From Candidatus Pacearchaeota archaeon (GTDB taxonomy: Archaea; Nanobdellota; Nanobdellia; Pacearchaeales; GW2011-AR1), in assembly GCA_027021195.1 (NCBI GenBank), contig JALUUW010000003.1, positions 4,843-68,842 of the forward strand: a stretch of DNA of 64,000 bases. Direction: 5' to 3'. Position 1 is the first letter of the stretch, and each line of letters starts with the position of its first letter. Below are positions 16,448 to 46,227 of the stretch, piece by piece. The notes beneath the pieces were generated by a model. That model had not been told where the DNA came from and did not search any database. It was given only the letters and a program-made list of their open reading frames with translations. The translations under genes and the position numbers were made by a program.

Positions 16448-16588
16448 AGTACGGCTTGTTTTTTAAGTATTATTGTAATTAAGGATAAGGTATTTATTTA
16501 AACTTTGCCCACTCTTTCATAAGATGTTAAGTGAGCTCAGATTATTTTTTACAGAAGGAAGATTATTGAGCTAATTAAGAGATATAAA

Positions 16589-18202
16589 ATGCAGGAAAAT
16601 CTCAAAAATTCATCAGGGGAGCAAAGCTTCAAAGAGCAGAGGATAAGGAAGATAACTCATTTGTATTACTCAAGGCCGGACATACAGAAAGCAATTTTTG
16701 AATTCTCCAAAAACAGGGAAATTTCACCAAGATATTTTGAAGGCTTCGGCAAAAGGCCTGACAGCTTCCAGTATAAAGGAGATATATTTGAGCTTGTAAA
16801 AAAAGGAGCGACATCCTTTCATTGCTCAGAGGAATTGTGGCAGGACCCTCTTAAAATAACCACTGGAATGACAGAATCCCAGTCAAATGAGCTAAGAATC
16901 GGCTGGGACTTATTAATTGATATTGACTGCAAGTGGTTTGATTATTCCAAGCTGGCGGCAAAAGCAATAATTGGAGTTTTGAAAGATAATGGAATTAAAA
17001 ATCTGGGATTGAAGTTCTCAGGAAGCAAAGGATGGCACATCTTAATTCCCTGGAAATCTTTTCCAAAAGAAATAAATGGGGTCAGTTCATCAAATCTTTT
17101 TCCAGAGCTTCCAAGAAAAATTATAAATTATATAAGATTCCAGTCAGAAAAAAAACTAAAGGAGATGCTTCCTGAAGATTTTGAGGAGCAGTTTAAAGGA
17201 GTGAATATTAAGAGAGGGATAAAATGCAACAGGTGCAGTGAAATTGCCAGCCAGTATGTTTATGCTGTTTTTTCCTGCAGAAAGTGCGGAAGAAAAGAAT
17301 ACAAAAAATTCCATTCAAAAGGCCAGATGAAAAAATACAGCTGTCCTGAATGCGGGGCTGAATTTAAAATAGAGAGCCAACTTACCTATCATGAGTGCCA
17401 TCAGTGCAGGATAAATTCAAAATATAACCCAGATGATTTCTCGCAAACAATACAGGAGGATTTGTTTGATTTAATGGGGCTGGATATTATTCTGGTTTCT
17501 CCAAGGCACTTGTTCAGGATGCCTTATTCCCTCCACGAGAAAACAGCACTTGCAAGTGTAGTAATTGATGAGCAGGATATTGACGGTTTTCAGTTAAAAG
17601 ATGCCAGCCCTATGAAAATCTCTTCAGAAAAAATAAAAAATTTTTCCCCTGTCTCAGCAGAAGAAGCTGAAGCTGAAGCTCTTGTGAGAGAGGCTCTTGA
17701 CTGGACAAAAGACCTTCAGATTGCAAGAGGGGAAACAGAAGAAAAAATAACGGGAAAATATGCAGAGTACAAGCCGGTTAAGCTTGACAATCTTTCAGAG
17801 CAGAATTTTCCGCCATGCATAAAAAATATTCTAAAAGGAATTTCAGACGGAAAAAAGAGGGCTTTGTTTGCTTTAATAAATCTTTTCAGAAGCGTAGGAA
17901 TGGACAAGGAAAAAATGGAGAATGAAATTTATGAGTGGAACAAAAAAAACAATCCGCCGTTAAAAGAAGGGTATATTAAATCCCAGCTTTCATGGGCTTA
18001 CAGAAAAAAGCCAATAATGCCCCCTAACTGCAAGGAATTTTATCAGGGAATTGCAGCATGCCAGCCAGATGATTTGTGCCTCAACAAAGGAATAAAGAAT
18101 CCAGTTAATTATGTTGTAAGAAGAAGCATTTCAAAAAGAAAAGGGCATAGAAAGTCCAGGACAAATGGAAACAGTAAGGATAATTTTAAAAAGAAGAATT
18201 GA
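16589..18202 (+). CDS. priS: DNA primase catalytic subunit PriS fused to a PriL-CTD-like Fe-S domain, with an inserted Zn-ribbon
   Basis: AEP motifs LLIDIDCK and FSGSKGWHIL. A CxxC...CxxC insert (CNRCSE...CRKCG, CPECG...CHQC). The C-terminal segment has four Cys (FPPC...PPNC...AAC...DLC) resembling the PriL Fe-S domain. Confidence 0.65.
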   Translation: MQENLKNSSGEQSFKEQRIRKITHLYYSRPDIQKAIFEFSKNREISPRYFEGFGKRPDSFQYKGDIFELVKKGATSFHCSEELWQDPLKITTGMTESQSNELRIGWDLLIDIDCKWFDYSKLAAKAIIGVLKDNGIKNLGLKFSGSKGWHILIPWKSFPKEINGVSSSNLFPELPRKIINYIRFQSEKKLKEMLPEDFEEQFKGVNIKRGIKCNRCSEIASQYVYAVFSCRKCGRKEYKKFHSKGQMKKYSCPECGAEFKIESQLTYHECHQCRINSKYNPDDFSQTIQEDLFDLMGLDIILVSPRHLFRMPYSLHEKTALASVVIDEQDIDGFQLKDASPMKISSEKIKNFSPVSAEEAEAEALVREALDWTKDLQIARGETEEKITGKYAEYKPVKLDNLSEQNFPPCIKNILKGISDGKKRALFALINLFRSVGMDKEKMENEIYEWNKKNNPPLKEGYIKSQLSWAYRKKPIMPPNCKEFYQGIAACQPDDLCLNKGIKNPVNYVVRRSISKRKGHRKSRTNGNSKDNFKKKN

Positions 18203-20064
18203 CTCTATCAGACATGGGAAAAAGAGTTCAAGCGTCATGTCTTTTAGTGATATCTCTGCTTTTTGTAATTCTATCAGCATCTTTTATGGCTGCAGAAGGC
18301 AACTCAACAAGTTCTGATGCGGACAAAATCAATAAAGCATATGGGTGTCTTGAAGATAAAGTAAAGGGAAAATGCCCCTCTCTTTCTCTGGAAGAGAGAA
18401 TTTTCTCTCTATTAGCTATAGGAGAGTGTAAAGAAGAGCTTCTTTCTAATTCAAAAGACGAGGAGTGCTGGCCAAAATCTGATTGCAAGGTTAAGCCTAC
18501 AGCTCAGGCTATTCTGGCCCTTAACGGAGCAAACAAAGATACAAGCAGGGCAGAAGAGTGGCTTTTATCTCAGAATTCCACTCCTTCTGAAATTGACTGG
18601 TTTCTGCAGATTGAAAGCGCAGAAGCCACAACATGTAATGTGGATTACTCAGGAAATTCTTATCAAGTATCTATTGACGCTGAAAAAAAACTGAGCTCTA
18701 ATGCAGGAAGTTGCCTCAGTCTTTATGGAGGGGATTACTGGTTTAGAATCTCTCCTTCATGCTATGATAACGAATTCGCAATTTCATGCGACAAGCCTTT
18801 TCTTACAACGCTTTTGTTTAAGAAAAAAACCTCTTCAACAATTCATGTCTCTCAAAAAACAAACTCTGCTGCATCAGAAGGGACAACAATAGAGAAGGTT
18901 GGCTCTCTTTGCTTTTCAAAAGGAGGCTCCTGTGATTATGAGGGGAGCTTATGGGCTGCTTTGGCACTAAACTCACTGGGTAAAGATGTTTCATCATTTA
19001 TGCCTTACCTTATAACAATGGCTGATGAGAATGGCAAGTATCTTCCGGAGTCTTTTTCCTATATTCTGACAGGATATGAGGATTTTCGCAATGAATTGCT
19101 CTTAAAACAAAAAAGCAACAAGTACTGGATGGAATCAGGGGACAAGTTTTATGATACTGCTCTTGCATTGTATCCGTTGCAGTATGAAACTCCTGAAGAA
19201 AAGACAAATGCAGTAAACTGGCTTTTGGAATCCCAGGACAATGAAGGGTGCTGGGAAGGCAACATAAGAAATACTGCTTTTATTCTTTATTCTGTCTGGC
19301 CAAAAGACTTTGCTGTTGATGAGGAGGATGAAAGAGTTGATTGCGAGAGTGCAGGATATTATTGCATGTCTGAGATAAACTGTGAAGGAGAGGTTCTTCC
19401 GGACTATTCCTGCTCAGGAGTTTTTAAGTGCTGCGACACCCCTATCCCTCTGGAAACCTGTGAAGAAATGGGCGGACAGGTCTGCAACTCAAATCAGGCA
19501 TGCGTTGAAGGAAGAGTTGAAGACTCTCCAGACCTTGATTTTGGAGAGGCTTGCTGCCTGGGTGGCTTTTGCGAAGACTCTGCCCCCGTTGAAGAAGAAG
19601 TGTCAGAATGCGAGTCATACGGAGGGGTGTGCAGAACAAACGGGTGTTTTGATGATGAAGAGGAATCTTCCTATTCCTGTGACTTCACTACTGACTCCTG
19701 CTGCACTGTAAAAATTTCTCCTAAAAAAAGCTATTGGTATGTCTGGGTGCTGTTGTTTTTAATAGGGCTTGTAGCTATTGGCATAGTTTTCAGGGATAAA
19801 TTGAGGCCTTATTGGTTTAGGCTGAAGTCAAAGTTTAAAGGCAAAGGCTCTGGAACTGGAAGCCCTGCTCCAAGAAGGCCAGGGTTCCCTCCTCCGTCTT
19901 CAAGAATTCCTTTAAGAAGGAGAATTATGCCAAGAAGAATAATTCCTCCGCAGCAGACTCCTCAAAATATTCCAAGACAATTTCGCCCTTCTGTTCAAAA
20001 GAAACAAAAATCAAGCAAGGAGCTTGATGAAGTTCTTAAAAAGCTCAGGGAAATGGGAAATTGA
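18199..20064 (+). CDS. Secreted Cys-rich surface protein (621 aa) with a C-terminal TM anchor and a Pro/Arg-rich cytoplasmic tail
   Basis: N-terminal signal-like helix. Three C-terminal copies of a C-x6-8-C-x5-C...CC module. TM YWYVWVLLFLIGLVAIGIVF followed by PRRPGFPPPSSRIPLRRRIMPRRIIPPQQ. Confidence 0.55.
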   Translation: MTLSDMGKRVQASCLLVISLLFVILSASFMAAEGNSTSSDADKINKAYGCLEDKVKGKCPSLSLEERIFSLLAIGECKEELLSNSKDEECWPKSDCKVKPTAQAILALNGANKDTSRAEEWLLSQNSTPSEIDWFLQIESAEATTCNVDYSGNSYQVSIDAEKKLSSNAGSCLSLYGGDYWFRISPSCYDNEFAISCDKPFLTTLLFKKKTSSTIHVSQKTNSAASEGTTIEKVGSLCFSKGGSCDYEGSLWAALALNSLGKDVSSFMPYLITMADENGKYLPESFSYILTGYEDFRNELLLKQKSNKYWMESGDKFYDTALALYPLQYETPEEKTNAVNWLLESQDNEGCWEGNIRNTAFILYSVWPKDFAVDEEDERVDCESAGYYCMSEINCEGEVLPDYSCSGVFKCCDTPIPLETCEEMGGQVCNSNQACVEGRVEDSPDLDFGEACCLGGFCEDSAPVEEEVSECESYGGVCRTNGCFDDEEESSYSCDFTTDSCCTVKISPKKSYWYVWVLLFLIGLVAIGIVFRDKLRPYWFRLKSKFKGKGSGTGSPAPRRPGFPPPSSRIPLRRRIMPRRIIPPQQTPQNIPRQFRPSVQKKQKSSKELDEVLKKLREMGN

Positions 20065-20443
20065 TGGGGTATATAACAAGATAAGGATGATTGCGGGCTT
20101 TATGATAAAGCAAAAATTTTCCAGATAATGCAAATACTCTGCAATTATATTTAGAAACAATGAAAAGATTTGGCGAGGAGATGATGTTTTTCGCAACATA
20201 GGTATTGGAACTGTTTGCTCTTCTTGTGGAAATCATTATGAATTTGATTTTTACCATGATAAGAAGATGTTAGAAAGACTTGCTGAAGGTCCGGAACAAG
20301 AATTGCGTTGAATGTTTTGTTCAGGATGGCTCTATCCGCTTAGCTATGAGGAAGGGTATCTGCCTATATCACTGACAGAATTATGCATTCGTGTTCTTTC
20401 TAAATAAAAAAACTTTATTAACCATATATTTCTTTACATACTT

Positions 20444-21775
20444 ATGAAAAAAAGCATAATTATTCTTGCAGTTTTATTACTGGCAATTCAATTTGCCTCA
20501 GCAGTTGAGTTTGACATGAAATCAGAATTCAGTCAGGGAGAAACAATTATTGCCAGAGTTTCTGGAAATTTCATAGACCCTGTTCTCAGGGAAAACATAC
20601 ATTTTTACAGGGGCAATGTGCCGACTTCAATAATCTATGATGTTGCAAGAATAAGCGGAGAGTTTTACATTTATGCTATTCTCTCTGGAAAAAAAGAGGG
20701 AAATTATTCAATAGTGATAGAGAATGCAAAATACATGAAAGGCTCTCAGGTAGTTGAAGATGCAATAACAAAAAACTTCTCAATAACCAACAGTACAGCA
20801 GATTTTTCAGTAGATCCCGGGTTTATTATAACAAAAGGGAAATTTTTTGTGCAGGTTCAGAATCTGAAGGATTATAAAATAAATGTCAATGCAAAAATAC
20901 TTGCAGATTCAGGAAACAATGGCGGAGGGCTTTTTGATTCTTTGTTTGGAAACAATGGTGAAACAAATGTTTATGAGAAATCAGTTGCTCTGAAATCTGG
21001 CGAGATTAAAAAGATTGATTTTGAATTGGCAAATCTAACTGGCTCAGAACTGACAACTCTTGAAGTAAGCAGTGAAAATCTAAAATACAGCATCCCTCTT
21101 TATATTATAACGAATATGACTGGCGAGGAAGGGGAAAAAGAAAAGGGGATTAAACTTAAATTTGATCCTTCTGAATTAAATGTATCAATCCCTACTTCTT
21201 CAAACACTACAAGAATCATCTATCTGCGAAATTCCGGAGAAGTGGCAATAGAGAATATTTCTTTATCAGTGTCTGATTCCCTGAAGGATTATCTTTCTCT
21301 TTCAGCATATGATATTAATGGGCTTGAGGGGAACTCAAGTGTAAAAATAGAGGTTTATCTTTCTTCAGGAGATATAGAAAGAACTTTTGAAGGGCAGATA
21401 ACTGCAAAAGCTCCTTCAGCAGCTGAAGGAAATGACGTCTATGCTTATGCTGCTGTTTTTTTGAATTTTGTAAAAGGGTTTAAGCCTTTGGACAATGAAA
21501 CAGGAGAGATAAACTATGGAAAAGAAAATACCTGTTCGGAAATGAATGGTGAAATCTGCGCTGAAAATATGGAGTGTTACGGAGACCTAAAATATGCTTT
21601 AGATGGTGTTTGTTGTTTGGGAAGCTGCAGGGAGCTTAAGGAGAGCCCTACAGGAAAAATAATCGGATGGTTAATAATAGTTCTTGTTGCAGTCTTCCTT
21701 ATATGGTTTTTCCGGTTTAAATACAAGGAGGCAAAAAAAGAAGTAAATCTTTTGAAAATTGCCAAGAGAAAGTGA
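20444..21775 (+). CDS. Secreted protein (443 aa) with a signal peptide, one Cys-rich module and a C-terminal TM anchor
   Basis: Signal peptide MKKSIIILAVLLLAIQFASA. CSEMNGEICAENMECYGD...GVCCLGSC module similar to those in 18199..20064. C-terminal TM IIGWLIIVLVAVFLIWFF. Confidence 0.55.
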   Translation: MKKSIIILAVLLLAIQFASAVEFDMKSEFSQGETIIARVSGNFIDPVLRENIHFYRGNVPTSIIYDVARISGEFYIYAILSGKKEGNYSIVIENAKYMKGSQVVEDAITKNFSITNSTADFSVDPGFIITKGKFFVQVQNLKDYKINVNAKILADSGNNGGGLFDSLFGNNGETNVYEKSVALKSGEIKKIDFELANLTGSELTTLEVSSENLKYSIPLYIITNMTGEEGEKEKGIKLKFDPSELNVSIPTSSNTTRIIYLRNSGEVAIENISLSVSDSLKDYLSLSAYDINGLEGNSSVKIEVYLSSGDIERTFEGQITAKAPSAAEGNDVYAYAAVFLNFVKGFKPLDNETGEINYGKENTCSEMNGEICAENMECYGDLKYALDGVCCLGSCRELKESPTGKIIGWLIIVLVAVFLIWFFRFKYKEAKKEVNLLKIAKRK

Positions 21776-28054: not shown

Positions 28055-28996
28055 TCAGGCATTCTTTTTAAAATTATACAGTGGCTGCAGAACAAATTCC
28101 GGCTTTGCAAAAATTTCATCTCTGTTTTTATCATAAGTGTTGATTACTTTATACATTCCGATAAACCTTTCTCCTGAAAAAACACATATAATTCTTCCTT
28201 TTTCAATCTCTTCCCCTTCATCCATCAAATCTTTAGTAAAAATTGGCTTTCCTGTTAAAAGCCTTTTAATCTCTTTTTCTTTGACCCGCACAACTGGATA
28301 AACTTCAGACACTATTTCAGCAGGGACTATAATGTCTTTCAATGGCTTTTCACTGCCTTTCCTGTATTCTTCAACAGCTTTTTCAAAATCATACAAATTT
28401 ACAGATGGATACTTGCAATTCTTGTTTCTGTATTCTGAGAAAATTCCTGCCCTTATCCTCCTTAATTCAAGCATGTGTGCTCCTATTCCAAGCTCTTTCC
28501 CCAAATCATCAATCAATTTCCTTATGTAAGTTCCTCCCTCGCACTCAACATGAAACAAAATATCTTTTCCATCTTCGCTTTTTTCAAGCAGCTCAAATTT
28601 TTTTATCTCTCTTTCTCTGAATTGCCTTTTAACTCTTGATTTCACAGGAGGCATCTGCATAATCCTGCCAATGAATTTTTCCCTTATTGTCTCTTTAATT
28701 TTTTCCATAGGAGTATCCTCATGAATTCTCATTATCCCAACATACTCTTTATCCTCTCCCAAAAAAAATCCAGTCAGCTTGCATGCTCTGTTTAATGCAA
28801 TGGGCAAAACTCCTGTAACTTTTGGGTCAAGTGTTCCAAAATGGCTTGTTTTCCTGATTCCAAAATCCTTCAAGGCTTTCCTGACAAAATCAGAAATATT
28901 GAATGATGTAGGTCCTGAAGGCTTGTCAATGTTTATAATCCCGAATTCCAAAAGCTCTTGAATGCTTTTCTTCACTTTTAGTTTTTCAATATCCAT
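28055..28996 (-). CDS. cbf5: H/ACA RNP pseudouridine synthase Cbf5 (TruB family with PUA domain)
   Basis: IINIDKPSGPTSF, GTLDPKVTGVLPIAL (catalytic Asp), C-terminal PUA-like segment. Confidence 0.8.
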   Translation of the reverse strand: MDIEKLKVKKSIQELLEFGIINIDKPSGPTSFNISDFVRKALKDFGIRKTSHFGTLDPKVTGVLPIALNRACKLTGFFLGEDKEYVGIMRIHEDTPMEKIKETIREKFIGRIMQMPPVKSRVKRQFREREIKKFELLEKSEDGKDILFHVECEGGTYIRKLIDDLGKELGIGAHMLELRRIRAGIFSEYRNKNCKYPSVNLYDFEKAVEEYRKGSEKPLKDIIVPAEIVSEVYPVVRVKEKEIKRLLTGKPIFTKDLMDEGEEIEKGRIICVFSGERFIGMYKVINTYDKNRDEIFAKPEFVLQPLYNFKKNA

Positions 28997-29145
28997 AATA
29001 TCTCCTGTTAAATGCCTTTAAAAAGCATTAATTTACTACTGAAATATCTTTGCAACCTTTCTTTAAGAAATCTTCTGATTTTTATAATATTTCTGCAAGA
29101 GCCTGTTATGAAAATCTTTATAAAGTTTGTAATTCTTAATAAAAA

Positions 29146-29724
29146 ATGCTTGATAGGGATATTTCCCAAGGCCAAGGTGTTTTTGAGGTCAGAGGGGATT
29201 ACAGCATAAAATTCCCAATGGGGAAAGAGGAGAGGGAGATTATATCAGGAGATTATGCAGTATATTTCTATAATCAGATTTTAAATGCAGAAACTCCTTC
29301 TGAATGTTCTTTTTTTAGAATAGTGTTTGACGGGCTTAGATTTGAGGAACAACAAAGCCTGATACGCATTCATGAATGGTGTATGGGTGAAAAAGCAAAT
29401 CACTATATAGGGTATGGAAATGCTGCTCTTGATTTGTATGAAAGAATGGGAGTTGATGTAGGGAACTACATTGAGATAATAAAAAGGCTTGAGGATAAAA
29501 AATATGGTCATTGCAATGAGTGCGGATACCTGTTTGATGAAGAGTTTAAAAAAGAGAACAGGATAGGCTTTATTACGAAAAATCCGGGCAGAATATTTAA
29601 GCCATTTAACATATCTTCCAGCTATTGCGACGACTGCCTTGAAGAGGTTAGAGATAAAAATAAGAGGCTGAAGATAGCTGAAAGATTAAGCCATGATTTT
29701 AGGATTTTTACCACCCTTTTATGA
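29146..29724 (+). CDS. Hypothetical Zn-ribbon protein
   Basis: HCNECG...CDDC pair of CxxC. Confidence 0.3.
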   Translation: MLDRDISQGQGVFEVRGDYSIKFPMGKEEREIISGDYAVYFYNQILNAETPSECSFFRIVFDGLRFEEQQSLIRIHEWCMGEKANHYIGYGNAALDLYERMGVDVGNYIEIIKRLEDKKYGHCNECGYLFDEEFKKENRIGFITKNPGRIFKPFNISSSYCDDCLEEVRDKNKRLKIAERLSHDFRIFTTLL

Positions 29725-29745
29725 TTTCGGATTATAATTTAAGTT

Positions 29746-30390
29746 CTACTTCTTTAAGGCCTTTCTAAATTCATGCTTTGGCTTTTTTGCCTTCTCTTGA
29801 ACCTGATGTTTTGCTTTTTTATGAGCTTCTTTTTCAAGTTGCTTTCCTTCTTCAACAACTGAGGCCTTTTTTTCTTCCTCCTCTTTTTTTTCTTCTTTTG
29901 CCTCTTCCTTGATTCTTTTTTCTTCAGCCTCTTTTGCAGCTGCTTTTTTCTTTTCAGCAACTTCTGATGCAAGCTTCTCTCTTTTTTCTTCCCTTAATCT
30001 CTTAAACTTTAATTTTTCAGGAAGCTCAGCAAGCTCTGCAACAACTGTATCGCTTCCTGATTCTTTAACTGCTTTAACTCTTACTTTTACAGGAGGCTTT
30101 CTTATTCCTCTGCTCCAGACAAATTCATTCAGGTATTTGTCAATCTTGACTTTTCCCAAATCCCCGTCTCTTATTTTCATATGCCTTACTAAGAACTCTT
30201 TGATTGTTTTTACTGCTTTGTTTGCTTTTTTATATCTTGGAACAGCTTCAAGCTTTTTCCGAAGAGGAATAACATATTCTCTTTCAATGCCTTTTGGATT
30301 CTCTTTTTTTGATTTATTATCTCCAGAGGCTCCTTGCTTTTGAGGGCTTTCTTTTCCTTTGGTTTCTCTTGTTTCAGTTTTTTCTGTCAT
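29746..30390 (-). CDS. rpl31e: Ribosomal protein L31e with N- and C-terminal Lys/Glu-rich extensions
   Basis: EREYVIPLRKKL...RYKKANKAVKTIKEFLVRHMK...VKIDKYLNEFVWSRGIRKPPVKVRV matches the L31e core. Flanked by low-complexity K/E-rich tails. Confidence 0.65.
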   Translation of the reverse strand: MTEKTETRETKGKESPQKQGASGDNKSKKENPKGIEREYVIPLRKKLEAVPRYKKANKAVKTIKEFLVRHMKIRDGDLGKVKIDKYLNEFVWSRGIRKPPVKVRVKAVKESGSDTVVAELAELPEKLKFKRLREEKREKLASEVAEKKKAAAKEAEEKRIKEEAKEEKKEEEEKKASVVEEGKQLEKEAHKKAKHQVQEKAKKPKHEFRKALKK

Positions 30391-30400
30391 ATTATGGAAT

Positions 30401-30604
30401 TTAGCCGAAATGAGATTTTCTCTGTTTTCTTGGCTTGATATGCAATTTAGTTCTTCTCCATGAGCGCCTGTGTTTTGTTATGGCTGAAGGATGAATTCTT
30501 TTTCCCATTCCAAACTTTTTCAGGACAACCCACACAGGAGCCCACTTAGTCTGCCTTCCTTTTTTTGCAAGCTGCGCTTTTTTTTGCGGATTTTTTATTG
30601 GCAT
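30401..30604 (-). CDS. rpl39e: Ribosomal protein L39e
   Basis: KKAQLAKKGRQTKWAPVWVVLKK...RRSWRRTKL, 67 aa. Confidence 0.75.
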   Translation of the reverse strand: MPIKNPQKKAQLAKKGRQTKWAPVWVVLKKFGMGKRIHPSAITKHRRSWRRTKLHIKPRKQRKSHFG

Positions 30605-30609
30605 TTTCC

Positions 30610-30861
30610 TTATCTACTCTCCTTTGCTTTAAATTTTCTCAGAATATTGTTCTTTTTTCCACACAAGATTTCTGCAGGGACAAATTCTTTTCCAGATTTT
30701 AGCAAAGCGTATACTCTTGTTTCTCCACCCCTTTGAGATATTAAAAAATCTCTCCTGTCTTCTTTGCAAGTGAATTTTTCTAACTTTCCTTCTTTAATCT
30801 CCCAAGGATAAGCTATTCGGTAAATTGTTCCTGAATACTTTCTTCCTGAATAATCCATCAT
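30610..30861 (-). CDS. Conserved small hypothetical protein between rps19e and rpl39e
   Basis: ORF-track ORF in the conserved S19e–L39e–L31e gene string. No motif assigned. Confidence 0.3.
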   Translation of the reverse strand: MMDYSGRKYSGTIYRIAYPWEIKEGKLEKFTCKEDRRDFLISQRGGETRVYALLKSGKEFVPAEILCGKKNNILRKFKAKESR

Positions 30862-31280
30862 TTTATTCCCTCCAAAAACTCTTTTCCTTTTTGAGTAAGC
30901 TTCCTTCCGGGCTTTCTTCCCTTTACTCCTTTGACAGCCTTTACAATCTCTGTAAAACCTGCCTTGTCTGATTGCTGAAGAATCGTCCTGATTATCTTTC
31001 CTCCGGCCTTTCTGAATTCTTCTGGCTTAAACCCTCTGTTTTTTTTGCTTCCATACTTTGTCCTGAGTCTGTTGACTCCTACACTGTTTTTTTTGTAAAT
31101 CTGCCTTAAAATGCTTGCAGCCCTCTTGTACCAAAAGTCAGGGTCATCTATTGGTCTTTCCTTTGCTGGCCCTGACTTGACAAATTCAGCCCACTCCGGC
31201 TGCTTAAATTCATCAACTTTCTTCAGCGCTTCAGCTAATTTTTTGTTGTATTCACTGGCATCAATGTCATAAACTCCCAT
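30858..31280 (-). CDS. rps19e: Ribosomal protein S19e
   Basis: PEWAEFVKSGPAKERPIDDPDFWYKRAASILRQIY...SGKIIRTILQQ. Confidence 0.8.
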   Translation of the reverse strand: MGVYDIDASEYNKKLAEALKKVDEFKQPEWAEFVKSGPAKERPIDDPDFWYKRAASILRQIYKKNSVGVNRLRTKYGSKKNRGFKPEEFRKAGGKIIRTILQQSDKAGFTEIVKAVKGVKGRKPGRKLTQKGKEFLEGIK

Positions 31281-31478
31281 TTTATGTTTTCTTTGTCTGA
31301 AATTTAGCCACGCTTTGCAGCGTTAGATAAGTCTCCTTTTTTGGAGACCACTCAGCTAAAAATTATCAACAAAGTTAGTTTATAAATCTATCTGAAACAC
31401 CTGATTGGATGATGAAGTTTTTAAAAAGCCAACTCCTTAATTAATATCATGACTGGATAAAAAAAGACCATATAAAAA

Positions 31479-32957
31479 ATGCCACAAAATAAAACCAGAA
31501 GCTTCAAAACAAAAACAAAGAATTTTCAAATAAGCACTGCTATAGACTATCCTTCTGGAAAGTTTCATCTTGGCCACGCCTATGAAAAAATATGCACTGA
31601 CACTTTTGCAAGATGGAAGAGGCTAAAGGGGTATAATGTGCATTTTAGCACCGGAACTGATTGTCATGGATTAAAGATAGAGAGGATAGCAAAAAAACAT
31701 GGCAAAACACCTCTTGAATTTGTTAATGAAATATCAGGGGGATTTAAGGATCTGTCAAAATCACTCAATGTCTCTTATGATGATTTTATTATGACGACTG
31801 AAGAAAGGCACAAGAAGGTTGTAGCAAAGATACTAAATGGCCTGAAAAATAAAGGAGAAATTTACAAAGGGTATTACGAAGGGCTTTATTGTGTTGAATG
31901 TGAAACATATTATACTGAAAAAGATGCAGAAAATATGTGCTGCCCAATACATAAAAATGCTCTGGAAAAGATAAAAGAAGAAAGTTATTTCTTTAAATTA
32001 AGCAAATATCAGAACAGGCTCATTAAGGCAATTAAAGACAGAAATCTGGTTTGGCCTGAAAAGAAGAAAAAAGAGATTTTGAACAGGCTAAAAGAGCCTC
32101 TAAAAGATTTGAGCATTAGCAGAGAAAATGTATCCTGGGGAATTCCCCTCCCTTTTGATAAAAATAAAACCGCTTTTGTCTGGGTTGAAGCTCTGATGAA
32201 TTATCTGACAACTGTTGATTATCCTAATAAGATGTTCAGGGATTTTTGGCCGGCAACCCATTTTATCGGCCCTGACATTGTGTGGCATCATACAGTAATA
32301 TGGTATTCGCTGCTAATGGCTTTAGAGTTAGAGCTGCCAAGAGTGGTTGTTCACGGATTTATAAATCTTAAAGGAGAAAAACTAAGCAAGGCAAGAGGCA
32401 TTACAATTGACCCTCTGGAACTATCAGAAAAGTTTTCTTCAGACAGCCTAAGGTATTTTTTAATGAGAAATATCCCCTTTGGCCAGGATGGAGATTTTTC
32501 AGAAAAAGCATTAATTGACAGGCATAACAACGAGCTGGCAGACAAGCTTGGCAACCTTGTTTCAAGAGTTTCAGGCTTAATTGAGAAAACAGGAATTGAG
32601 AAGACTCAAAACACTATTGCAGGAAAATTAAACATTGAAAAAATTGAAAAGCTGTTTGAGAGTTATGAGTTTGACAAGGTGCTGAATGAAATTTTTGCCT
32701 TTATTGACATATGCAACGAGTATATTCAGGAAAAAAAGCCGTGGGAGACAAAAGATGTTAAAGTTTTATATGAGGTTGCTGACAGCATTAAAGCAGTAGC
32801 AATTCTTCTTTGGCCTTTTATTCCTTCATCATGCGAGAGAATTGCAGAGCAGTTCGGGTTTGAAGTGGGAGAAAGGACTTTTGATAAAATTAAAGAGCCT
32901 TTAAAAATAAGCAAGATTAAAAAAAGAGAGATACTTTTTAAGAAAAGTAGCATTTAG
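31479..32957 (+). CDS. metG: Methionyl-tRNA synthetase catalytic core. It ends at an in-frame TAG.
   Basis: HIGH-type motif (SGKFHLGHAYE), Zn knuckle (CVECETYY...CCPIH), KMSKS-type motif (KLSKARG). Confidence 0.9.
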   Translation: MPQNKTRSFKTKTKNFQISTAIDYPSGKFHLGHAYEKICTDTFARWKRLKGYNVHFSTGTDCHGLKIERIAKKHGKTPLEFVNEISGGFKDLSKSLNVSYDDFIMTTEERHKKVVAKILNGLKNKGEIYKGYYEGLYCVECETYYTEKDAENMCCPIHKNALEKIKEESYFFKLSKYQNRLIKAIKDRNLVWPEKKKKEILNRLKEPLKDLSISRENVSWGIPLPFDKNKTAFVWVEALMNYLTTVDYPNKMFRDFWPATHFIGPDIVWHHTVIWYSLLMALELELPRVVVHGFINLKGEKLSKARGITIDPLELSEKFSSDSLRYFLMRNIPFGQDGDFSEKALIDRHNNELADKLGNLVSRVSGLIEKTGIEKTQNTIAGKLNIEKIEKLFESYEFDKVLNEIFAFIDICNEYIQEKKPWETKDVKVLYEVADSIKAVAILLWPFIPSSCERIAEQFGFEVGERTFDKIKEPLKISKIKKREILFKKSSI

Positions 32958-32960
32958 AAA

Positions 32961-33308
32961 ATGGAGGGAATATTAAGCTTCAGCGACTGGCAAAAGCTTG
33001 ACTTAAGAGTAGGGCAGATTGTTGAAGTTGAAGATATCCAAGGGGCTGACAGGCTTTACAAGCTTACAATTGATTTGGGAGAGGAATTGGGAAAAAGAAT
33101 TGTCTGCGCAGGATTAAAAGAGCATTATTCTAAAGAAGAGCTAAAAGATAAAAAAGTAATTCTCTTTGTCAACCTGGCTCCAAGAAAACTAAAAGGAATT
33201 GAAAGCAGAGGGATGATTCTTGCTGCTGTTTCTGAATCAGGAGGCAGAAAAAAAGTATGTTTGCTTCAGCCAGACAAAGACATTGAAGCTGGGAGCAAAG
33301 TAAGTTAA
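32961..33308 (+). CDS. Trbp111/EMAP-like tRNA-binding domain (MetRS C-terminal domain), separate ORF in the same frame as metG
   Basis: LDLRVGQIVEVEDIQGADRLYKLTIDLGEE...RIVCAGLKEHY...KVILFVNLAPRKLKGIESRGMIL is an OB-fold tRNA-binding domain. Its ATG lies 4 nt after the metG TAG. Confidence 0.75.
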   Translation: MEGILSFSDWQKLDLRVGQIVEVEDIQGADRLYKLTIDLGEELGKRIVCAGLKEHYSKEELKDKKVILFVNLAPRKLKGIESRGMILAAVSESGGRKKVCLLQPDKDIEAGSKVS

Positions 33309-33358
33309 ACATATATTTCGTAATCTATATATTGAAAAGTATATATTATTGTTTCTAT

Positions 33359-34135
33359 TTAAGCCTTTAAGCCTAATTTTTTAAGAACTCTTTCAATCAT
33401 CCTCTCTCTGTCTTTGTTTGAATCATATTCCACTTCAAGAATTCTTGCAGCAATTTCTTTATATGCGCGGGAAGGCTTGCTCTTTGGATGAGTATGAACA
33501 ATTGCATCTTTCATGTTCAAAGATTCCTGCACAGTTATGTCCTCTGGAATCATTCCAAGGATTGGGGCCTCAAGCATCTCCTTAACAACTTCAGGATGCA
33601 TTTCTGTATGGTTTTTCCTTACTCTCGTGACAATAACCCCAAGGACAGGTTTTTTCATTTGTTCTGCAAGTTTTATTGTCTTTAGAGCGTCAGTTATTGC
33701 AGGCATCTCCGGGTTTGTTACAACTATCAGCTCATCTGCAATCTCTATTGAAGGCAGAACTTCGCTTCCAAGGCCTGCAGCGCTGTCAACAATTATGTAT
33801 TCAGAAATTTTCAGGAAGTCTTTTCTGAATCCCTTTATTTTCTCTGGCTTTGTCCTTCTTAATTCTTTTATTGACAGGGAGGAAGGAAGCACTTTCATCC
33901 CTGACTCATGCTCGTAAATTGCTTCAAATACGTCTGCTTTTCCAGAGAGAACCTGGTTTAAAGTTATAGGGACTTCAGGAGACCCAAGATGAATTCCTAC
34001 ATTCGGAGTTGTAAGATTTCCGTCAATTATAAGAACATCCTTTCCAAAATGATTCATTGCTGCCCCAAGATTTATTGCAGTAGTTGTCTTTCCAACCCCT
34101 CCTTTTCCAGATGTAATAACAATTATCTTTCTCAT
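33359..34135 (-). CDS. minD: MinD/ParA-family ATPase
   Basis: Deviant Walker A SGKGGVGKTT, 258 aa. Confidence 0.8.
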   Translation of the reverse strand: MRKIIVITSGKGGVGKTTTAINLGAAMNHFGKDVLIIDGNLTTPNVGIHLGSPEVPITLNQVLSGKADVFEAIYEHESGMKVLPSSLSIKELRRTKPEKIKGFRKDFLKISEYIIVDSAAGLGSEVLPSIEIADELIVVTNPEMPAITDALKTIKLAEQMKKPVLGVIVTRVRKNHTEMHPEVVKEMLEAPILGMIPEDITVQESLNMKDAIVHTHPKSKPSRAYKEIAARILEVEYDSNKDRERMIERVLKKLGLKA

Positions 34136-34189
34136 TTTTAATTATCTCTGAAATATCTGTTTGAATCGCAGATAAAGAAGCTTAACTTC

Positions 34190-34630
34190 TTATCGTAAAA
34201 GAAATTGTTTTGTAGTGCTTATAAACTTTTCCAACATGTCGGCATATTCCTTTAAACGCTCAAGATTGATATTAATCTCCTTCCCCCTGTAAAAAACCTT
34301 TAGTGTGACATTTTTTCTGAATTCACCGATTCTTTCCTTCCTTAAGTCCTCAACTTTTCTGAACATCTCATAAGCATCCATTACTGCCAGGAAGTTCTTG
34401 TCATTTCTAAACAGTTTTCTGACCTCTTCTATTTTTTTTAAAGGATTTGACGGCACTGAAGATATCTTTTTCTTTTTTTTGGCATGCTTTAGTATTTCAT
34501 CTATGCTTCTCTCAATCATTCTCCTCCATCTCAGGAGAAGATTCATTATCACATCGCAGGTTTTTGTATATTTCAGGCTTACATACAATAGATGGTCTGC
34601 GCTTATTTTTTCCTGAATAATCTCTTCCAT
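34190..34630 (-). CDS. Hypothetical protein
   Basis: ORF-track ORF only. Confidence 0.3.
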   Translation of the reverse strand: MEEIIQEKISADHLLYVSLKYTKTCDVIMNLLLRWRRMIERSIDEILKHAKKKKKISSVPSNPLKKIEEVRKLFRNDKNFLAVMDAYEMFRKVEDLRKERIGEFRKNVTLKVFYRGKEININLERLKEYADMLEKFISTTKQFLLR

Positions 34631-34735
34631 TATCGAACTCCTATAAAATCACCAATTAGAAGTATCTTTTACATATACACAAGGCTTTTTATATTTTTCT
34701 CAAAAATGAAATTTTCTTAATCTTGCCCTTAAATG

Positions 34736-35074
34736 CTATTTGCTTAGGTTCAAGATAGCTTCAGCGAGGTCATTTGTCTTTTCAAGAGCCTCTCTCGCTT
34801 CTTCATCAGTGCATCCTGTTTTTTCCATTACTGTTTTCACGTCTTCTTCTGAAATTCCTGGTTCAGCAGTTTCTTCTCTAACCTCTCCTGCAATTTGGAA
34901 TGTCTCCTGTCCCTGTATCTCTATTTTTGTCACAGAAGGATTTTCAATTATTATCTTTCCACTGCCTGAAGAATCAGCTTTTTCAATTACAACTCTTGAA
35001 GCCGGAATCTCCTCCTGAGACATTCCCATTTGCTTCATCAATGCCTGCATCTTTTTAGGGTTTAGGTTGAACAT
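34736..35074 (-). CDS. nac: Nascent polypeptide-associated complex protein (NAC alpha homolog with C-terminal UBA)
   Basis: MFNLNPKKMQALMKQMGM...VIEKADS...IIIENPSV... NAC domain. The C-terminal DVKTVMEKTGCTDEEAREALEKTNDLAEAI is UBA-like. Confidence 0.7.
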   Translation of the reverse strand: MFNLNPKKMQALMKQMGMSQEEIPASRVVIEKADSSGSGKIIIENPSVTKIEIQGQETFQIAGEVREETAEPGISEEDVKTVMEKTGCTDEEAREALEKTNDLAEAILNLSK

Positions 35075-35178
35075 TTTATGTATCCTCTAAAATGTATCAT
35101 GTTGTTATTATTTATACTTTTCTATATCTAATATTAAGAATATAAAAGGATGGAAGAGTTATTTGCTCAGGAATTATT

Positions 35179-35340
35179 TCAGTAAATCAATCCTAAAAAA
35201 ATTCTGAAAGCAACAATAAGTCCTATGAATACAATTACATGAATTGGCTTTAAATTGAATCTGCTTGCATACTCCTCATTGAATCTCATCAATCCCCCAA
35301 ATCCTCCTGGAAGATTTACTGAGTTTCCTGCTTGTGCCAT
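35179..35340 (-). CDS. secG: Preprotein translocase subunit Sec61beta/SecG (53 aa; not in the supplied ORF track)
   Basis: Manual translation: MAQAGNSVNLPGGFGGLMRFNEEYASRFNLKPIHVIVFIGLIVAFRIFLGLIY. GLMRFxEE plus a single C-terminal TM is the archaeal Sec-beta signature. Confidence 0.6.
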   Translation of the reverse strand: MAQAGNSVNLPGGFGGLMRFNEEYASRFNLKPIHVIVFIGLIVAFRIFLGLIY

Positions 35341-35391
35341 GCTTTTCTGAATAAGGGATACTTTTTAAAAGTTTCCTGACTGCCCTTACCT

Positions 35392-37776
35392 ATGCCAAAA
35401 AACAAAATTGACATTAAGAAAACAGAAGATAAATGGAAGTCTTTTTGGGAGAAAGAAGGAATTTATAAGTTTGAAGGAAAGAAAAGAAAAAAAATCTACA
35501 GCATAGACACTCCTCCGCCTTATGTTTCAGGGGACATGCACATCGGCCATGCTTTCTCATATTCCCAGCAGGATTTTATTGCAAGATTCAGAAGAATGCT
35601 TCACATGAAGGATGGAGAGGTTTTTTACCCTTTTGGAACAGACGACAATGGATTGCCTACTGAAAGGTTTGTAGAAAAAAAGAATAGAATAAAAAGCAAA
35701 AGCATTTCAAGGGCCGAATTTATTGAGTTGTGCTTAAAAACACTGAAAGAGATAACTCCTGATTTTATTCAAGACTGGAAAGACCTGGGAATATCATGCG
35801 ATTACAGTCTTTACTACTCAACTATTGACAAACACTCGCAGAAAATATCGCAGAAGTCATTTATTGAGCTGTTTAAGCAGGGAGATATATACAGAAAGGA
35901 GTTTCCGACTTTATGGTGTACTGAATGCCAGACTACAATTGCTCAGGCAGAGCTTGAAGACATGGAAAAAGACAGCCTGTTTTCAACACTCAAATTTAAA
36001 GCAGATGGAAAAGACCTGCTGATTGCAACAACAAGGCCTGAGATGCTGAGAGCGTGTGTTGCTGTTTTTGTGAACCCAAAAGATACGAGATACAAAAGCC
36101 TTATAGGAAAAAAGGCAAAAGTTCCTTTATTTAATCATGAAGTTCCTATAATTGAGGATGAGTCAGCAGACATTGAAAAAGGGACAGGAGTCTTAATGAT
36201 TTGCTCCTACGGAGACAAGTTTGATGTTGAGGCAATTAACAGGCATGGCCTTAATCCAAAGATAATTCTGGGTAAAAACGGAACCATGAGCATTGAAGGT
36301 CATGAAAAGTATAATAGCTTAAGAGTAAAAGAGGCAAGAAAAAAAATTCTTGAAGATTTAAGAGAAAATGGCCTGATTGAAGAGCAGAAGCAAATCTCGC
36401 ATGTCGTGAATGTTCATGACAAGTGCGGAACTGAGATAGAGTTTGTTCCGACAGAGCAGTGGTTTATTAAAATTCTGGACAAAAAGAAAGAGCTTGTAAA
36501 GCAGGGAAAAAAGATTAACTGGCATCCTGAATTTATGTTTAAGAGGTATGAAAACTGGGTTAATGGCCTGGAGTGGGACTGGAGCATTTCAAGAGAGAGG
36601 CATTTCGGAGTTCCTATTCCTGTCTGGATTTGCAGGAAATGCAATGAAATTATTCTTCCTGAAGAAAAAGAGCTTCCAGTTGACCCTCTGCAAGAAAGAA
36701 AAAAATGCTCAAAATGCAATGAGCTTGCAGAAGGGGAAGAAAGGGTTTTAGACACCTGGGCAACCTCGTCATTAACTCCGCAGATTGCTTCCTCTCTGCC
36801 GGCTGTTAAAAAAACTGCAGAAGTAAAAATGCCTTTTTCATTAAGGCCCCAGGCTCATGACATAATAAGGACATGGGCATTTTATACTATTGTTAAATCA
36901 TATTTGCATGAAAAAGAGATTCCGTGGAAGGACATTATAATTTCAGGGTTTGTGACACACAAAGGAGAAAAAATGTCAAAAAGCAAAGGAACAGGAATCA
37001 GGCCAAGGCAACTCATGGAAACATACGGGACAGATGCATTAAGGTTCTGGGCTGCTGGCTCAAAACTCGGAGAGGACATGGACTATCATGAAAAGGATTT
37101 AATAACAGGAAAAAAATTCATAACAAAACTGGTTAATGCATCAAGGTTTGTTTTTATGAATCTTGAAGACTATTCCTCTGGAAAGAGGAAGCCGAAAAAA
37201 CTTGAAAAGCTTGATGAGTTATTCCTGAATAGGCTGAACGCTCTTATAAAGAGCTCTACAGAAAATTTTAAGAGATATGAATATTCAAAAGCAAAATCAG
37301 AAACAGAGCAGTTTTTCTGGCATGTTTTTTGCGATAATTATCTGGAGATAGTTAAAAAAAGAATCTACAATGAGAAAGGAGACAAAAAAATCTCAGCGCA
37401 ATACACTCTTTACACTTCCCTTCTTACAATCCTGAAGCTAATTGCACCTATAATGCCGTTTATCACAGAGGAAATTTACCAGACTTACTTTAAAAAATCA
37501 GAAAAAGAAAAAAGCATTCATATTTCTAAGTGGCCTGAGGAGATTAAAATACCAAAGCTAAGCAAGAAAGAAGAGGGAATTTTTGATATAATGATTGAAA
37601 TCATTGCCAAAGTAAGGCATGAAAAATCCATTGCAAAAAAATCCATGAACTCTGAGATAGTTTTAACCTTAGAGAGAGATTTTTTAGAGAAGTTAGAAGA
37701 AGTCATTGATGACTTAAAGGCTGTTGCAAACGCGAAAGAAATCAGGGAAGGAAAATTCAGTGTTGAGTTTGTTTAA
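35392..37776 (+). CDS. valS: Class I aminoacyl-tRNA synthetase, most consistent with valyl-tRNA synthetase
   Basis: PPPYVSGDMHIGHA (HIGH), TTRPEML...AVFVNPKD, KMSKSKG. 794 aa. Confidence 0.7.
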   Translation: MPKNKIDIKKTEDKWKSFWEKEGIYKFEGKKRKKIYSIDTPPPYVSGDMHIGHAFSYSQQDFIARFRRMLHMKDGEVFYPFGTDDNGLPTERFVEKKNRIKSKSISRAEFIELCLKTLKEITPDFIQDWKDLGISCDYSLYYSTIDKHSQKISQKSFIELFKQGDIYRKEFPTLWCTECQTTIAQAELEDMEKDSLFSTLKFKADGKDLLIATTRPEMLRACVAVFVNPKDTRYKSLIGKKAKVPLFNHEVPIIEDESADIEKGTGVLMICSYGDKFDVEAINRHGLNPKIILGKNGTMSIEGHEKYNSLRVKEARKKILEDLRENGLIEEQKQISHVVNVHDKCGTEIEFVPTEQWFIKILDKKKELVKQGKKINWHPEFMFKRYENWVNGLEWDWSISRERHFGVPIPVWICRKCNEIILPEEKELPVDPLQERKKCSKCNELAEGEERVLDTWATSSLTPQIASSLPAVKKTAEVKMPFSLRPQAHDIIRTWAFYTIVKSYLHEKEIPWKDIIISGFVTHKGEKMSKSKGTGIRPRQLMETYGTDALRFWAAGSKLGEDMDYHEKDLITGKKFITKLVNASRFVFMNLEDYSSGKRKPKKLEKLDELFLNRLNALIKSSTENFKRYEYSKAKSETEQFFWHVFCDNYLEIVKKRIYNEKGDKKISAQYTLYTSLLTILKLIAPIMPFITEEIYQTYFKKSEKEKSIHISKWPEEIKIPKLSKKEEGIFDIMIEIIAKVRHEKSIAKKSMNSEIVLTLERDFLEKLEEVIDDLKAVANAKEIREGKFSVEFV

Positions 37777-45648: not shown

Positions 45649-46227
45649 ATGGAACAGAATAGAGCTATTAACAAAATCAAGTATGCAATTAAAAACAGGC
45701 TTCCGTCTTCTTTTGAATGCTACTCCCATGCCTGTAGCAACTATGCTATGTCAGAGATGATCGATCTTTCAGAGAAATCAATTTCTATGGTTATAAACTC
45801 CTATGACCCTGGACGCTATAATGATCCTTGCCTTATATACTCTTTTTTGAAATTTATAGATAAAACAGAAGGAAATGGAAGAATAAAGATAATCTTTGGA
45901 GAGGGGATTGGGAATATTGAAGAAAAAGGCCTTGTAGTAAGGATGAGAGCGCACTACAGAAGAAAAAACAAGGAAGATTCTCTGGAAGCCTACTCTCTTA
46001 GAGATAATGAGAAAGTAAGGTTTAGCAGATTTGCCCCCTCTCTTCTTTTCACAGCAGACTTAATGTCTCTTTGCGAGACTACAAAAAGAAATCTTTCTTC
46101 TGGAGAGGTGTTCTCTGTTTGGGCAAGCTTTAAGGGGTATGAGCCTGTTTTTTATATTGAGGGCCATCCTATCAGAGTGAGCAGTTTGATTAATCTTTAT
46201 TTAAATAATTCAGACAGGATTATCTAG
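45649..46227 (+). CDS. Hypothetical protein (192 aa)
   Basis: ORF-track ORF. Confidence 0.3.
   Translation: MEQNRAINKIKYAIKNRLPSSFECYSHACSNYAMSEMIDLSEKSISMVINSYDPGRYNDPCLIYSFLKFIDKTEGNGRIKIIFGEGIGNIEEKGLVVRMRAHYRRKNKEDSLEAYSLRDNEKVRFSRFAPSLLFTADLMSLCETTKRNLSSGEVFSVWASFKGYEPVFYIEGHPIRVSSLINLYLNNSDRII

What the first reader, a model, noticed from the sequence alone, without database searches (positions are those of the whole stretch)
32940..32975. In-frame TAG separates the MetRS core from its Trbp111-like tRNA-binding domain
Seen: metG (31479..32957) and the tRNA-binding-domain ORF (32961..33308) are in the same reading frame. They are separated only by TAG at 32955–32957 plus one Lys codon, and an ATG follows immediately. 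Elsewhere in the window TAA, TGA and TAG all terminate genes, so global TAG reassignment is not indicated. Inference: a recently split gene giving two polypeptides (a free-standing Trbp111-like domain is known in other taxa). Alternatively this is low-level TAG readthrough producing both a short and a long MetRS, or a sequencing error in a fused gene.
Basis: seen in the sequence. Interest (0 to 1): 0.55.

Follow-up and report, generated by a model that had tools for sequence, protein, structure and literature searches.

The report
Split MetRS: ordinary two-gene operon
The stop codon between the methionyl-tRNA synthetase core and its tRNA-binding domain is a normal gene boundary in a long-established, already annotated two-gene arrangement (MetRS alpha plus "subunit beta") that is common in these small DPANN archaea, and the shared reading frame is a coincidence.

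Summary
ORF1 (31479..32957, 492 aa, MetRS core) ends in TAG at 32955-32957. AAA follows, then the ATG at 32961 opens a 115-aa tRNA_bind/Trbp111-like ORF in the same frame.

The interpretation needs changing. This is not a recent split, a readthrough site or a sequencing error.
- All 120 best homologues of ORF2 are free-standing proteins of 109-140 aa. They share the same N-terminus, and NCBI already names several "methionine--tRNA ligase subunit beta".
- ORF1 ends where dozens of short MetRS homologues end (…ILFKKI-stop).
- The 20-30 aa linker found in every fused relative aligned is missing here.
- In related loci the beta gene overlaps metG out of frame (ATGA, TAATG), is separated from it by inserted genes, lies on the opposite strand, or is absent from the fetched stretch.
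- The window is the only in-frame case among 10 distinct tight junctions, no more than the 1-in-3 chance expectation.
- TAG ends 7 other ORFs in the window, each followed by another stop within 0-21 codons.
- A weak hairpin downstream of the TAG is not conserved.

Most likely mechanism (inferred): one alpha-beta transcript, with beta started at its own ATG, possibly by termination-reinitiation. Low interest; already known.

The parts
31479..32957 (+). metG alpha: MetRS catalytic core plus anticodon-binding domain, 492 aa, stop TAG. It carries HLGH at residues 30-33, KLSKA at 301-305 and a Zn knuckle at C138/C141/C155/H158.
   Evidence: One search gives the ORF. Pfam PF09334 at 3e-100 and PF08264. 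TIGR00398 metG 435.8 bits against a cutoff of 336; the motif residues are invariant across 20 homologues; the C-terminus ...ILFKKSSI* lies where short homologues end (...ILFKKI*).
32955..32957 (+). TAG stop codon of metG alpha, a genuine terminator.
   Evidence: One search shows the sequence. TAG ends 8 of 62 ORFs; the 7 other TAG stops are followed by a further stop within 0-21 codons; an ENA assembly contig carries identical sequence.
32958..32960 (+). 3-nt spacer (AAA) between the two genes. This compact operon junction is the reason the genes happen to share a frame.
   Evidence: Relatives have equivalent compact junctions in other frames: ATGA (L004, L012, L029), TAATG (L022, L114), TAA-A-ATG (L006, L095 family), TGA-TAAA-ATG (L093). 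Other same-strand gene pairs in the window overlap by 4 nt, for example 54826/54829, 55104/55107 and 57805/57808.
32961..33308 (+). metG beta: free-standing Trbp111-like tRNA-binding OB-fold protein, 115 aa, ATG start, TAA stop.
   Evidence: PF01588 full length. TIGR00399 'methionine--tRNA ligase subunit beta' 118 bits against a cutoff of 116.65; the top 120 homologues are all free-standing (109-140 aa, 64-77% identity); the N-terminus MEGI..FSDW.KLDLRVG is conserved. P. abyssi MetRS C-domain 1mkh at 4e-27, Trbp111 1pyb at 5e-24.
33359..34135 (-). Convergent MinD/ParA-type ATPase gene. It is not part of the system but serves as the conserved synteny marker downstream of beta.
   Evidence: CbiA/ParA Pfam hits. 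The same neighbour follows beta in L002, L114, L115, L116, L117 and L118.

Best explanation
The locus is a two-gene metG operon of a DPANN archaeon (Pacearchaeota/Nanoarchaeota-like). The first gene, alpha, encodes a complete MetRS core of 492 aa. The second, beta, encodes a free-standing 115-aa Trbp111-type OB-fold tRNA-binding protein. The TAG is the real stop of alpha and the ATG three bases later is the real start of beta. The split is old or recurrent in this group, not a fresh nonsense mutation, because the inter-domain linker of fused MetRS has been lost and both termini match those of many split homologues. The shared frame is an accident of a 3-nt spacer.

Inferred steps: both genes are transcribed from the promoter upstream of metG. 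Ribosomes terminating at TAG reinitiate at the adjacent ATG (translational coupling), or beta is initiated independently. No GGAG-type Shine-Dalgarno motif lies in the 25 nt before the ATG, and the same is true of most genes in the window.

From what is known of Trbp111 and MetRS C-domains (PMC11286949, PMC7175363), beta should form a homodimer that binds tRNA and assists aminoacylation in trans, while alpha should work as a monomeric synthetase.
For: - Domains: ORF1 is a full MetRS core and ORF2 a full tRNA_bind domain that passes the NCBIfam 'subunit beta' cutoff.
- Homologues of ORF2: the 120 best are all stand-alone proteins of 109-140 aa. 108 of them are 111-115 aa, 100 start 9-10 residues before the W/F-x-K-L-D-L-R motif as the window's does, and eight carry NCBI's name 'methionine--tRNA ligase subunit beta'.
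- End of ORF1: short MetRS homologues (464-492 aa, 62-75% identity) stop at ...ILFKKI, where ORF1 stops. Every fused relative aligned has an extra 20-30 aa K/E-rich linker before ...IEGI..M...F.DW.KLDLRV, and the window lacks it.
- Arrangements among 112 fetched loci: 27 fused; 11 tight same-strand junctions, none in frame (ATGA, TAATG, TAA-A-ATG, overlaps); 15 with beta 170-1361 nt downstream; 11 with beta on the opposite strand.
- Loci holding four of the closest beta relatives (71-77% identity) keep the order metG, beta, MinD(-). L114 has a TAATG overlap out of frame. L113, L116 and L117 have one or two ORFs inserted between alpha and beta. In L002 beta is inverted.
- An NJ tree places the window's alpha among short (split) forms.
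- TAG is an ordinary stop in the window.
- Gene callers in public collections already call two genes here, and the ENA contig is identical over 7,479 bp.
Against: Nothing here measures expression. Co-transcription, coupling and the absence of readthrough are inferred.

A predicted hairpin starts about 17 nt after the TAG (about 32975-33030) and folds better than shuffles (z = -2.35, 4 of 200 shuffles), so a local stimulatory structure cannot be excluded for this one genome.

No direct evidence shows that alpha and beta associate or that beta acts on tRNA-Met.

The NJ tree has no support values. Fused forms are interspersed among split ones, so the number and timing of fission events are unresolved.

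Alpha and beta similarities are discordant between relatives.
Confidence: 0.9

Rival explanations
1. Leaky or programmed TAG readthrough: most ribosomes stop, but a fraction decode TAG and make a 608-aa alpha-beta fusion, giving both short and long MetRS from one mRNA.
For: The two ORFs are in frame with one codon between the stop and the ATG. A hairpin is predicted about 17 nt downstream with z = -2.35. Fused MetRS is the functional form in many relatives.
Against: None of the other 9 distinct tight junctions in relatives is in frame. Beta is inverted or separated by other genes in close relatives. The hairpin is not conserved: across 66 homologous segments the mean z is 0.09 and only 2 fall below -2, including the window itself. 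A readthrough product would lack the 20-30 aa linker present in every fused relative aligned. Beta has its own conserved ATG start. No suppressor tRNA lies in the window. The other TAG stops are backed by nearby stops.
Confidence: 0.04
2. Recent fission: a fused metG in this lineage lately acquired a nonsense mutation, and the downstream domain is now expressed from a fortuitous ATG or is on its way to being lost.
For: The genes are adjacent and in frame. Fused forms exist at 65-70% core identity (P0002, P0003).
Against: A fresh nonsense mutation would leave the linker in place, and it is absent. The stop and start positions coincide with those of large split families. The window's beta is closer to free-standing betas (up to 77%) than to any fused C-domain (69% or less). 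The nearest alphas (70.4-75%) all lack the C-domain. Beta is intact and conserved.
Confidence: 0.04
3. Sequencing or assembly error, or a pseudogene: the true gene is fused and the TAG is an artefact.
For: The source is a metagenome-assembled sequence and read-level data were not available.
Against: An ENA assembly contig (ERZ27262676 k141_85451, 14 kb) matches the window over 7,479 bp with 0 mismatches, TAG included. The exact 492-aa and 115-aa proteins are on record in NCBI, JGI, Logan and ENA. The missing linker and the conserved termini cannot come from a single-base error.
Confidence: 0.01
4. TAG is decoded as an amino acid (pyrrolysine or a reassigned codon) in this organism.
For: None beyond the in-frame TAG itself.
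Against: TAG ends 8 of 62 ORFs. After the 7 other TAG stops the frame closes again within 0-21 codons, and one is a tandem TAG TAG. ORF1 ends at the position where homologues end with TAA or TGA. No tRNA-CUA lies in the window.
Confidence: 0.005

Closest known systems
'Methionine--tRNA ligase subunit beta' (NCBIfam TIGR00399, metG_C_term) of Pacearchaeota/Nanoarchaeota MAGs
   Same: Free-standing protein of about 113 aa with full-length PF01588, 64-77% identical to ORF2 and sharing the MEGI..FSDW.KLDLRVG N-terminus. It is encoded next to or near a short metG, with MinD downstream.
   Different: Nothing essential differs. The window's junction has a 3-nt spacer, so the genes are in frame, where relatives have overlaps, 1-4 nt spacers or inserted genes.
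Trbp111 of Aquifex aeolicus (PDB 1pyb, 8vtz) and other free-standing Trbp proteins (E. coli YgjH 3ers, Aeropyrum pernix Trbp)
   Same: Stand-alone OB-fold of about 111 aa. ORF2 aligns over residues 4-115 to Trbp111 residues 6-111 at E = 5e-24. These proteins are described as dimeric, binding the tRNA 3' end and enhancing aminoacylation in trans (PMC11286949, PMC7175363).
   Different: Dimerisation and tRNA binding were not tested for ORF2. ORF2 is more similar to archaeal MetRS C-domains (1mkh, 4e-27).
Fused archaeal MetRS with a C-terminal Trbp-like domain (Pyrococcus abyssi 1rqg/1mkh; Nanoarchaeum equitans MetRS-C 5h34)
   Same: The same two modules in the same order. ORF2 aligns to the C-domain of 1rqg (residues 617-721) at 1.5e-25. 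Many DPANN relatives are fused.
   Different: Here there are two polypeptides, and the 20-30 aa linker of the fused relatives is absent.
Split aminoacyl-tRNA synthetase genes of Nanoarchaeota (e.g. N. equitans AlaRS alpha/beta, PMC11392972)
   Same: An aaRS of a reduced-genome DPANN archaeon encoded as two genes.
   Different: The N. equitans AlaRS genes encode separate alpha and beta subunits that were assayed together for alanylation. Here the catalytic core is intact and only an accessory domain is separate.

Membership tests
MetRS (class I aaRS), short/core form | tRNA-synt_1g catalytic domain with HIGH and KMSKS signatures, plus the anticodon-binding domain | tested here: met
   PF09334 at 3e-100, PF08264 at 2.7e-10, TIGR00398 at 435.8 bits against a cutoff of 336. 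HLGH at 30-33 and KLSKA at 301-305 are invariant in the alignment.
MetRS subunit beta / Trbp111-like free-standing tRNA-binding protein | Full-length PF01588 OB-fold domain scoring above the curated family cutoff | tested here: met
   PF01588 94.3 bits against a cutoff of 27, profile positions 1-96 of 96. TIGR00399 118 bits against a cutoff of 116.65, which is a narrow pass.
MetRS subunit beta / Trbp111-like free-standing tRNA-binding protein | Encoded as an independent gene of about 110 aa with its own start, not only as a domain | tested here: met
   ATG at 32961. All 120 best homologues are 109-140 aa and free-standing, with the same N-terminus. In relatives the gene is inverted or separated from metG.
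MetRS subunit beta / Trbp111-like free-standing tRNA-binding protein | Homodimer that binds tRNA (3' CCA end) and stimulates aminoacylation | not testable with these tools
   Only sequence similarity through the C-terminal dimer-interface region of 1pyb and 1mkh is available. The function is taken from PMC11286949.
Programmed stop-codon readthrough | In-frame arrangement of the two ORFs conserved among relatives | tested here: not met
   None of the other 9 distinct tight junctions is in frame. Many relatives have beta inverted or distant.
Programmed stop-codon readthrough | Conserved stimulatory context or RNA structure 3' of the stop | tested here: not met
   The window's hairpin has z = -2.35. 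Across 66 homologous segments the mean z is 0.09 and 2 fall below -2, about the chance rate.
Programmed stop-codon readthrough | Detectable extended protein | not testable with these tools
   Needs proteomics or a reporter assay.
TAG recoding (pyrrolysine or codon reassignment) | TAG avoided as a terminator and found in frame inside conserved genes | tested here: not met
   TAG ends 8 of 62 ORFs, and a further stop follows within 0-21 codons for the 7 others.
TAG recoding (pyrrolysine or codon reassignment) | tRNA-CUA and pylS/pylBCD genes present | tested here: inconclusive
   The only tRNA in the 64-kb window is tRNA-Lys(CTT). The rest of the genome was not available.

The most novel reading that the evidence does not exclude
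In this one lineage the 3-nt in-frame spacer lets a small fraction of ribosomes read through TAG. The result would be a minor alpha-beta fusion with an unusually short tether, which would dimerise through beta. One mRNA would then yield monomeric MetRS, free beta dimer and a little tethered enzyme. The local hairpin at about 32975-33030 might help.
Probability: 0.04. Interest if true: 0.45.

Novelty: already known. Interest (0 to 1): 0.1.

Why it matters
It matters little beyond correct annotation. The locus should be annotated as two genes, metG and metG subunit beta, not as a pseudogene, a recoding site or a frameshifted fusion.

The survey does show that in Pacearchaeota/Woesearchaeota/Nanoarchaeota-type DPANN archaea the MetRS accessory domain occurs in every arrangement: fused, overlapping, adjacent, interrupted, inverted and distant. 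That makes the group a convenient natural series for studying gene fission and fusion, and for asking whether the Trbp-like domain works equally well in cis and in trans. This is a modest evolutionary point, not a new mechanism.

Tried and rejected
1. Readthrough signal. I folded 32940-33060 and found a hairpin with z = -2.35. I then folded the codon-equivalent 121-nt segment of 66 homologous beta or C-domain regions. The mean z was 0.09, so the structure is not conserved and I rejected it as a signal.
2. Global TAG reassignment. Rejected on stop usage and on the short distance to the next stop after the other TAG stops.
3. Suppressor tRNA in the window. None found; the only tRNA is tRNA-Lys(CTT).
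4. Recombinant alpha. The loci with the closest beta have alphas only 49-51% identical, and the loci with the closest alpha have betas only 55-63% identical. I looked for a breakpoint in 60-aa bins and found no sharp one, so this remains unexplained.
5. Literature. The archaeal fusion/fission survey PMC11237513 does not mention MetRS. The Trbp111 structure paper PMC305853 is not held. A call with a malformed search term failed.
6. The genome-contig scan with the single protein found only relatives at 57% identity or less. The metagenome scan with an alignment was needed to reach relatives at 60-74%.
7. I did not run a structure prediction, because sequence matches to solved Trbp and MetRS-C structures were already unambiguous.

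Full report
**Observation**

The sequence is as described. ORF1 runs 31479..32957 on the + strand (492 aa) and ends ...AAG AAA AGT AGC ATT TAG. The next codon is AAA, and ATG at 32961 opens a 115-aa ORF that ends with TAA at 33306-33308. The offset 32961-31479 is 1482, a multiple of three, so the ORFs share a frame. Pfam assigns ORF1 to tRNA-synt_1g (3e-100) with the anticodon-binding domain. It assigns ORF2 to tRNA_bind PF01588 over the whole profile. NCBIfam places ORF1 on positions 2-510 and ORF2 on positions 543-648 of the 648-position fused MetRS model PRK12267. ORF2 also passes the curated cutoff of TIGR00399, 'methionine--tRNA ligase subunit beta' (118 against 116.65 bits). Among 62 long non-overlapping ORFs in the window, the stops are TAA 29, TGA 25 and TAG 8.

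**Organism and public status**

The window has about 36% G+C and carries archaeal ribosomal protein genes (L31e, S19e), NAC and TruB next to metG. Its MetRS homologues come from Pacearchaeota, Woesearchaeota and Nanoarchaeota MAGs. The exact 492-aa and 115-aa proteins are already in NCBI, JGI, Logan and ENA collections as two separate gene calls. An ENA contig (ERZ27262676 k141_85451, 14 kb) is identical to window 28479-35957 with no mismatch, TAG included.

**Is TAG a stop here?**

Yes. The seven other TAG-terminated ORFs are followed by a further stop within 0-21 codons, and one is a tandem TAG TAG. Only metG has a long open frame behind its TAG. The only tRNA in the window is tRNA-Lys(CTT).

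**Gene boundaries compared with homologues**

I searched with the concatenated alpha+beta sequence. It returned two classes of MetRS: short forms of 464-492 aa without PF01588 (62-75% identical to ORF1) and fused forms of about 590-640 aa with PF01588.

In an alignment of the junction region, the short forms end at ...ILFKKI-stop, exactly where ORF1 ends (...ILFKKSSI-stop). Every fused form aligned continues with a 20-30 aa K/E-rich linker before ...IEGI..M...F.DW.KLDLRV. The window has no such linker. Between the alpha tail and the beta start there is only the stop and one Lys codon. A single-base error or a fresh nonsense mutation in a fused gene would have left the linker in place.

I then searched with ORF2 alone. 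All 120 best hits are free-standing proteins of 109-140 aa (108 of them 111-115 aa), 64-77% identical. NCBI names eight of them 'methionine--tRNA ligase subunit beta' in Pacearchaeota, Nanoarchaeota and Nanoarchaeia. Their N-termini read M(x)EGI(V/I)xFSDWEKLDLRVG. 100 of the 120 begin 9-10 residues before the W/F-x-K motif, as ORF2 does. By contrast, the C-domains of fused relatives are at most 69% identical to ORF2. The ATG at 32961 is therefore the conserved start of an established stand-alone protein family.

**Arrangements in related loci**

I fetched 29 loci from species-representative genomes and 80 from metagenomes. With the three loci already fetched for P0001, P0005 and P0010, that made 112. 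Each was classified by tblastn with ORF1 and ORF2.

| Arrangement | Loci |
|---|---|
| Fused | 27 |
| Beta directly after alpha on the same strand | 11 |
| Beta 170-1361 nt downstream on the same strand | 15 |
| Beta on the opposite strand | 11 |
| No beta in the fetched stretch (often short), or unclassifiable | remainder |

The tight junctions are typical compact operon junctions:
- ATGA overlaps: L004, L012, L029.
- TAATG: L022.
- TAA-A-ATG: L006 and the L095/96/100/101 family.
- TGA-TAAA-ATG: L093.
- A 14-nt overlap: L008.

None of them is in frame.

Contigs carrying four of the closest beta proteins (71-77% identity) keep the window's gene order metG, then beta, then MinD on the opposite strand.
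- L114 has ...ILFNKIE TAATG GAAGGA..., a 1-nt overlap that is out of frame.
- L113 has a 180-aa ORF between alpha and beta.
- L116 has two ORFs between them.
- L117 has a 103-aa ORF on the other strand between them.
- In L002, the locus with the closest alpha (75%), beta itself is inverted.

Counting distinct tight junctions, the window is the only in-frame one of ten, no more than the one-in-three chance expectation. Beta is evidently expressed as its own gene across the group. An NJ tree of the core domains, without support values, places the window's alpha among short forms. A few fused forms are interspersed and an outer clade is all fused. Fission is therefore old or recurrent, not specific to this genome.

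**Readthrough signals**

A hairpin is predicted at about 32975-33030, some 17 nt after the TAG, with z = -2.35 against dinucleotide shuffles. I folded the codon-equivalent segment of 66 homologues. The mean z was 0.09 and two segments fell below -2, the window being one of them, which is the chance rate. No readthrough-type feature is conserved.

**Mechanism**

Shown: there are two intact, conserved genes with a 3-nt spacer, and TAG is an ordinary stop.

Inferred: the two genes are co-transcribed from the region upstream of metG, and beta is translated from its own ATG. Initiation is probably by termination-reinitiation coupling. No GGAG-like motif precedes the ATG, which is also true of most genes in the window. 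Other same-strand pairs in the window overlap by 4 nt: 54826/54829, 55104/55107 and 57805/57808.

From the literature: free-standing Trbp111-type proteins are stable dimers that bind tRNA, recently shown to bind through the 3' CCA end, and they enhance aminoacylation. The same fold fused to MetRS is suggested to mediate dimerisation of certain MetRS proteins (PMC11286949, PMC7175363). ORF2 matches the P. abyssi MetRS C-domain (1mkh, 4e-27), N. equitans MetRS-C (5h34, 3e-25) and Trbp111 (1pyb, 5e-24; 8vtz). Alpha should therefore act as a monomeric MetRS and beta as a trans-acting tRNA-binding dimer. Whether they associate is unknown.

**Comparison and novelty**

This is a member of an already named and annotated family, MetRS alpha with 'subunit beta'. 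Nothing about the junction requires recoding. Split aaRS genes are also familiar in Nanoarchaeota (AlaRS alpha/beta, PMC11392972).

**Residual uncertainty**

No read-level or expression data were available, so low-level readthrough in this one genome cannot be excluded. I put it at about 4%.

Noticed in passing
window 31479-33308 compared with L002, L003, L113, L114, L116, L117: Alpha and beta similarities are discordant. Loci with the closest beta (70-77% identity) have alphas only 49-51% identical to the window's, with the canonical N-terminus FYVTTPIYY..PHIGHAY. Loci with the closest alpha (73-75%, the unusual FQISTAIDYPS..FHLGHAYEK type) have betas only 55-63% identical. No sharp breakpoint shows in 60-aa bins. 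This could be rate heterogeneity or in-situ replacement of alpha.
   Followed up: partly
L002 2015-2995, L003 2043-3014; proteins P0012, P0014, P0017, P0021, P0035, P0064: In close relatives a ~325-aa ORF with LAGLIDADG_3 or HTH-type Pfam hits lies directly upstream of metG or overlaps its start. Several database MetRS proteins of 789-866 aa carry this ~320-370 aa region as an N-terminal extension. The window lacks it; S19e lies upstream on the other strand.
   Followed up: no
window 8690-21775: This block holds seven large ORFs (262-1247 aa, both strands) with no Pfam hit at 1e-5. Its G+C is raised (0.37-0.43) against 0.29-0.33 in the first 8 kb and about 0.36 elsewhere. It may encode lineage-specific surface proteins or be a foreign segment.
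   Followed up: no
L047 2515-2682 (protein P0038, 536 aa): An otherwise fused MetRS relative has an in-frame TAA inside the tRNA-binding domain (...EDIAGADKLY*LQVDIGSEV...), and the homologous sequence continues in frame after it. The contig ends shortly after. This could be a pseudogene, a sequencing error or something else.
   Followed up: no
L028 3494-3600: The beta gene after metG looks degraded. MTNISFNEWQKL is followed by loss of the DLRVG segment and a frame change before ...DHPNADKLYVLKVDVG.
   Followed up: no
window 45649-46227 (+): This ORF ends with a tandem TAG TAG.
   Followed up: no
window 35392-37776 (+): A second class I aaRS gene (794 aa; tRNA-synt_1 plus Anticodon_1, of the Val/Ile/Leu type) lies 2 kb downstream of the metG operon. 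The neighbourhood is rich in translation genes: TruB, L31e, S19e and NAC.
   Followed up: no
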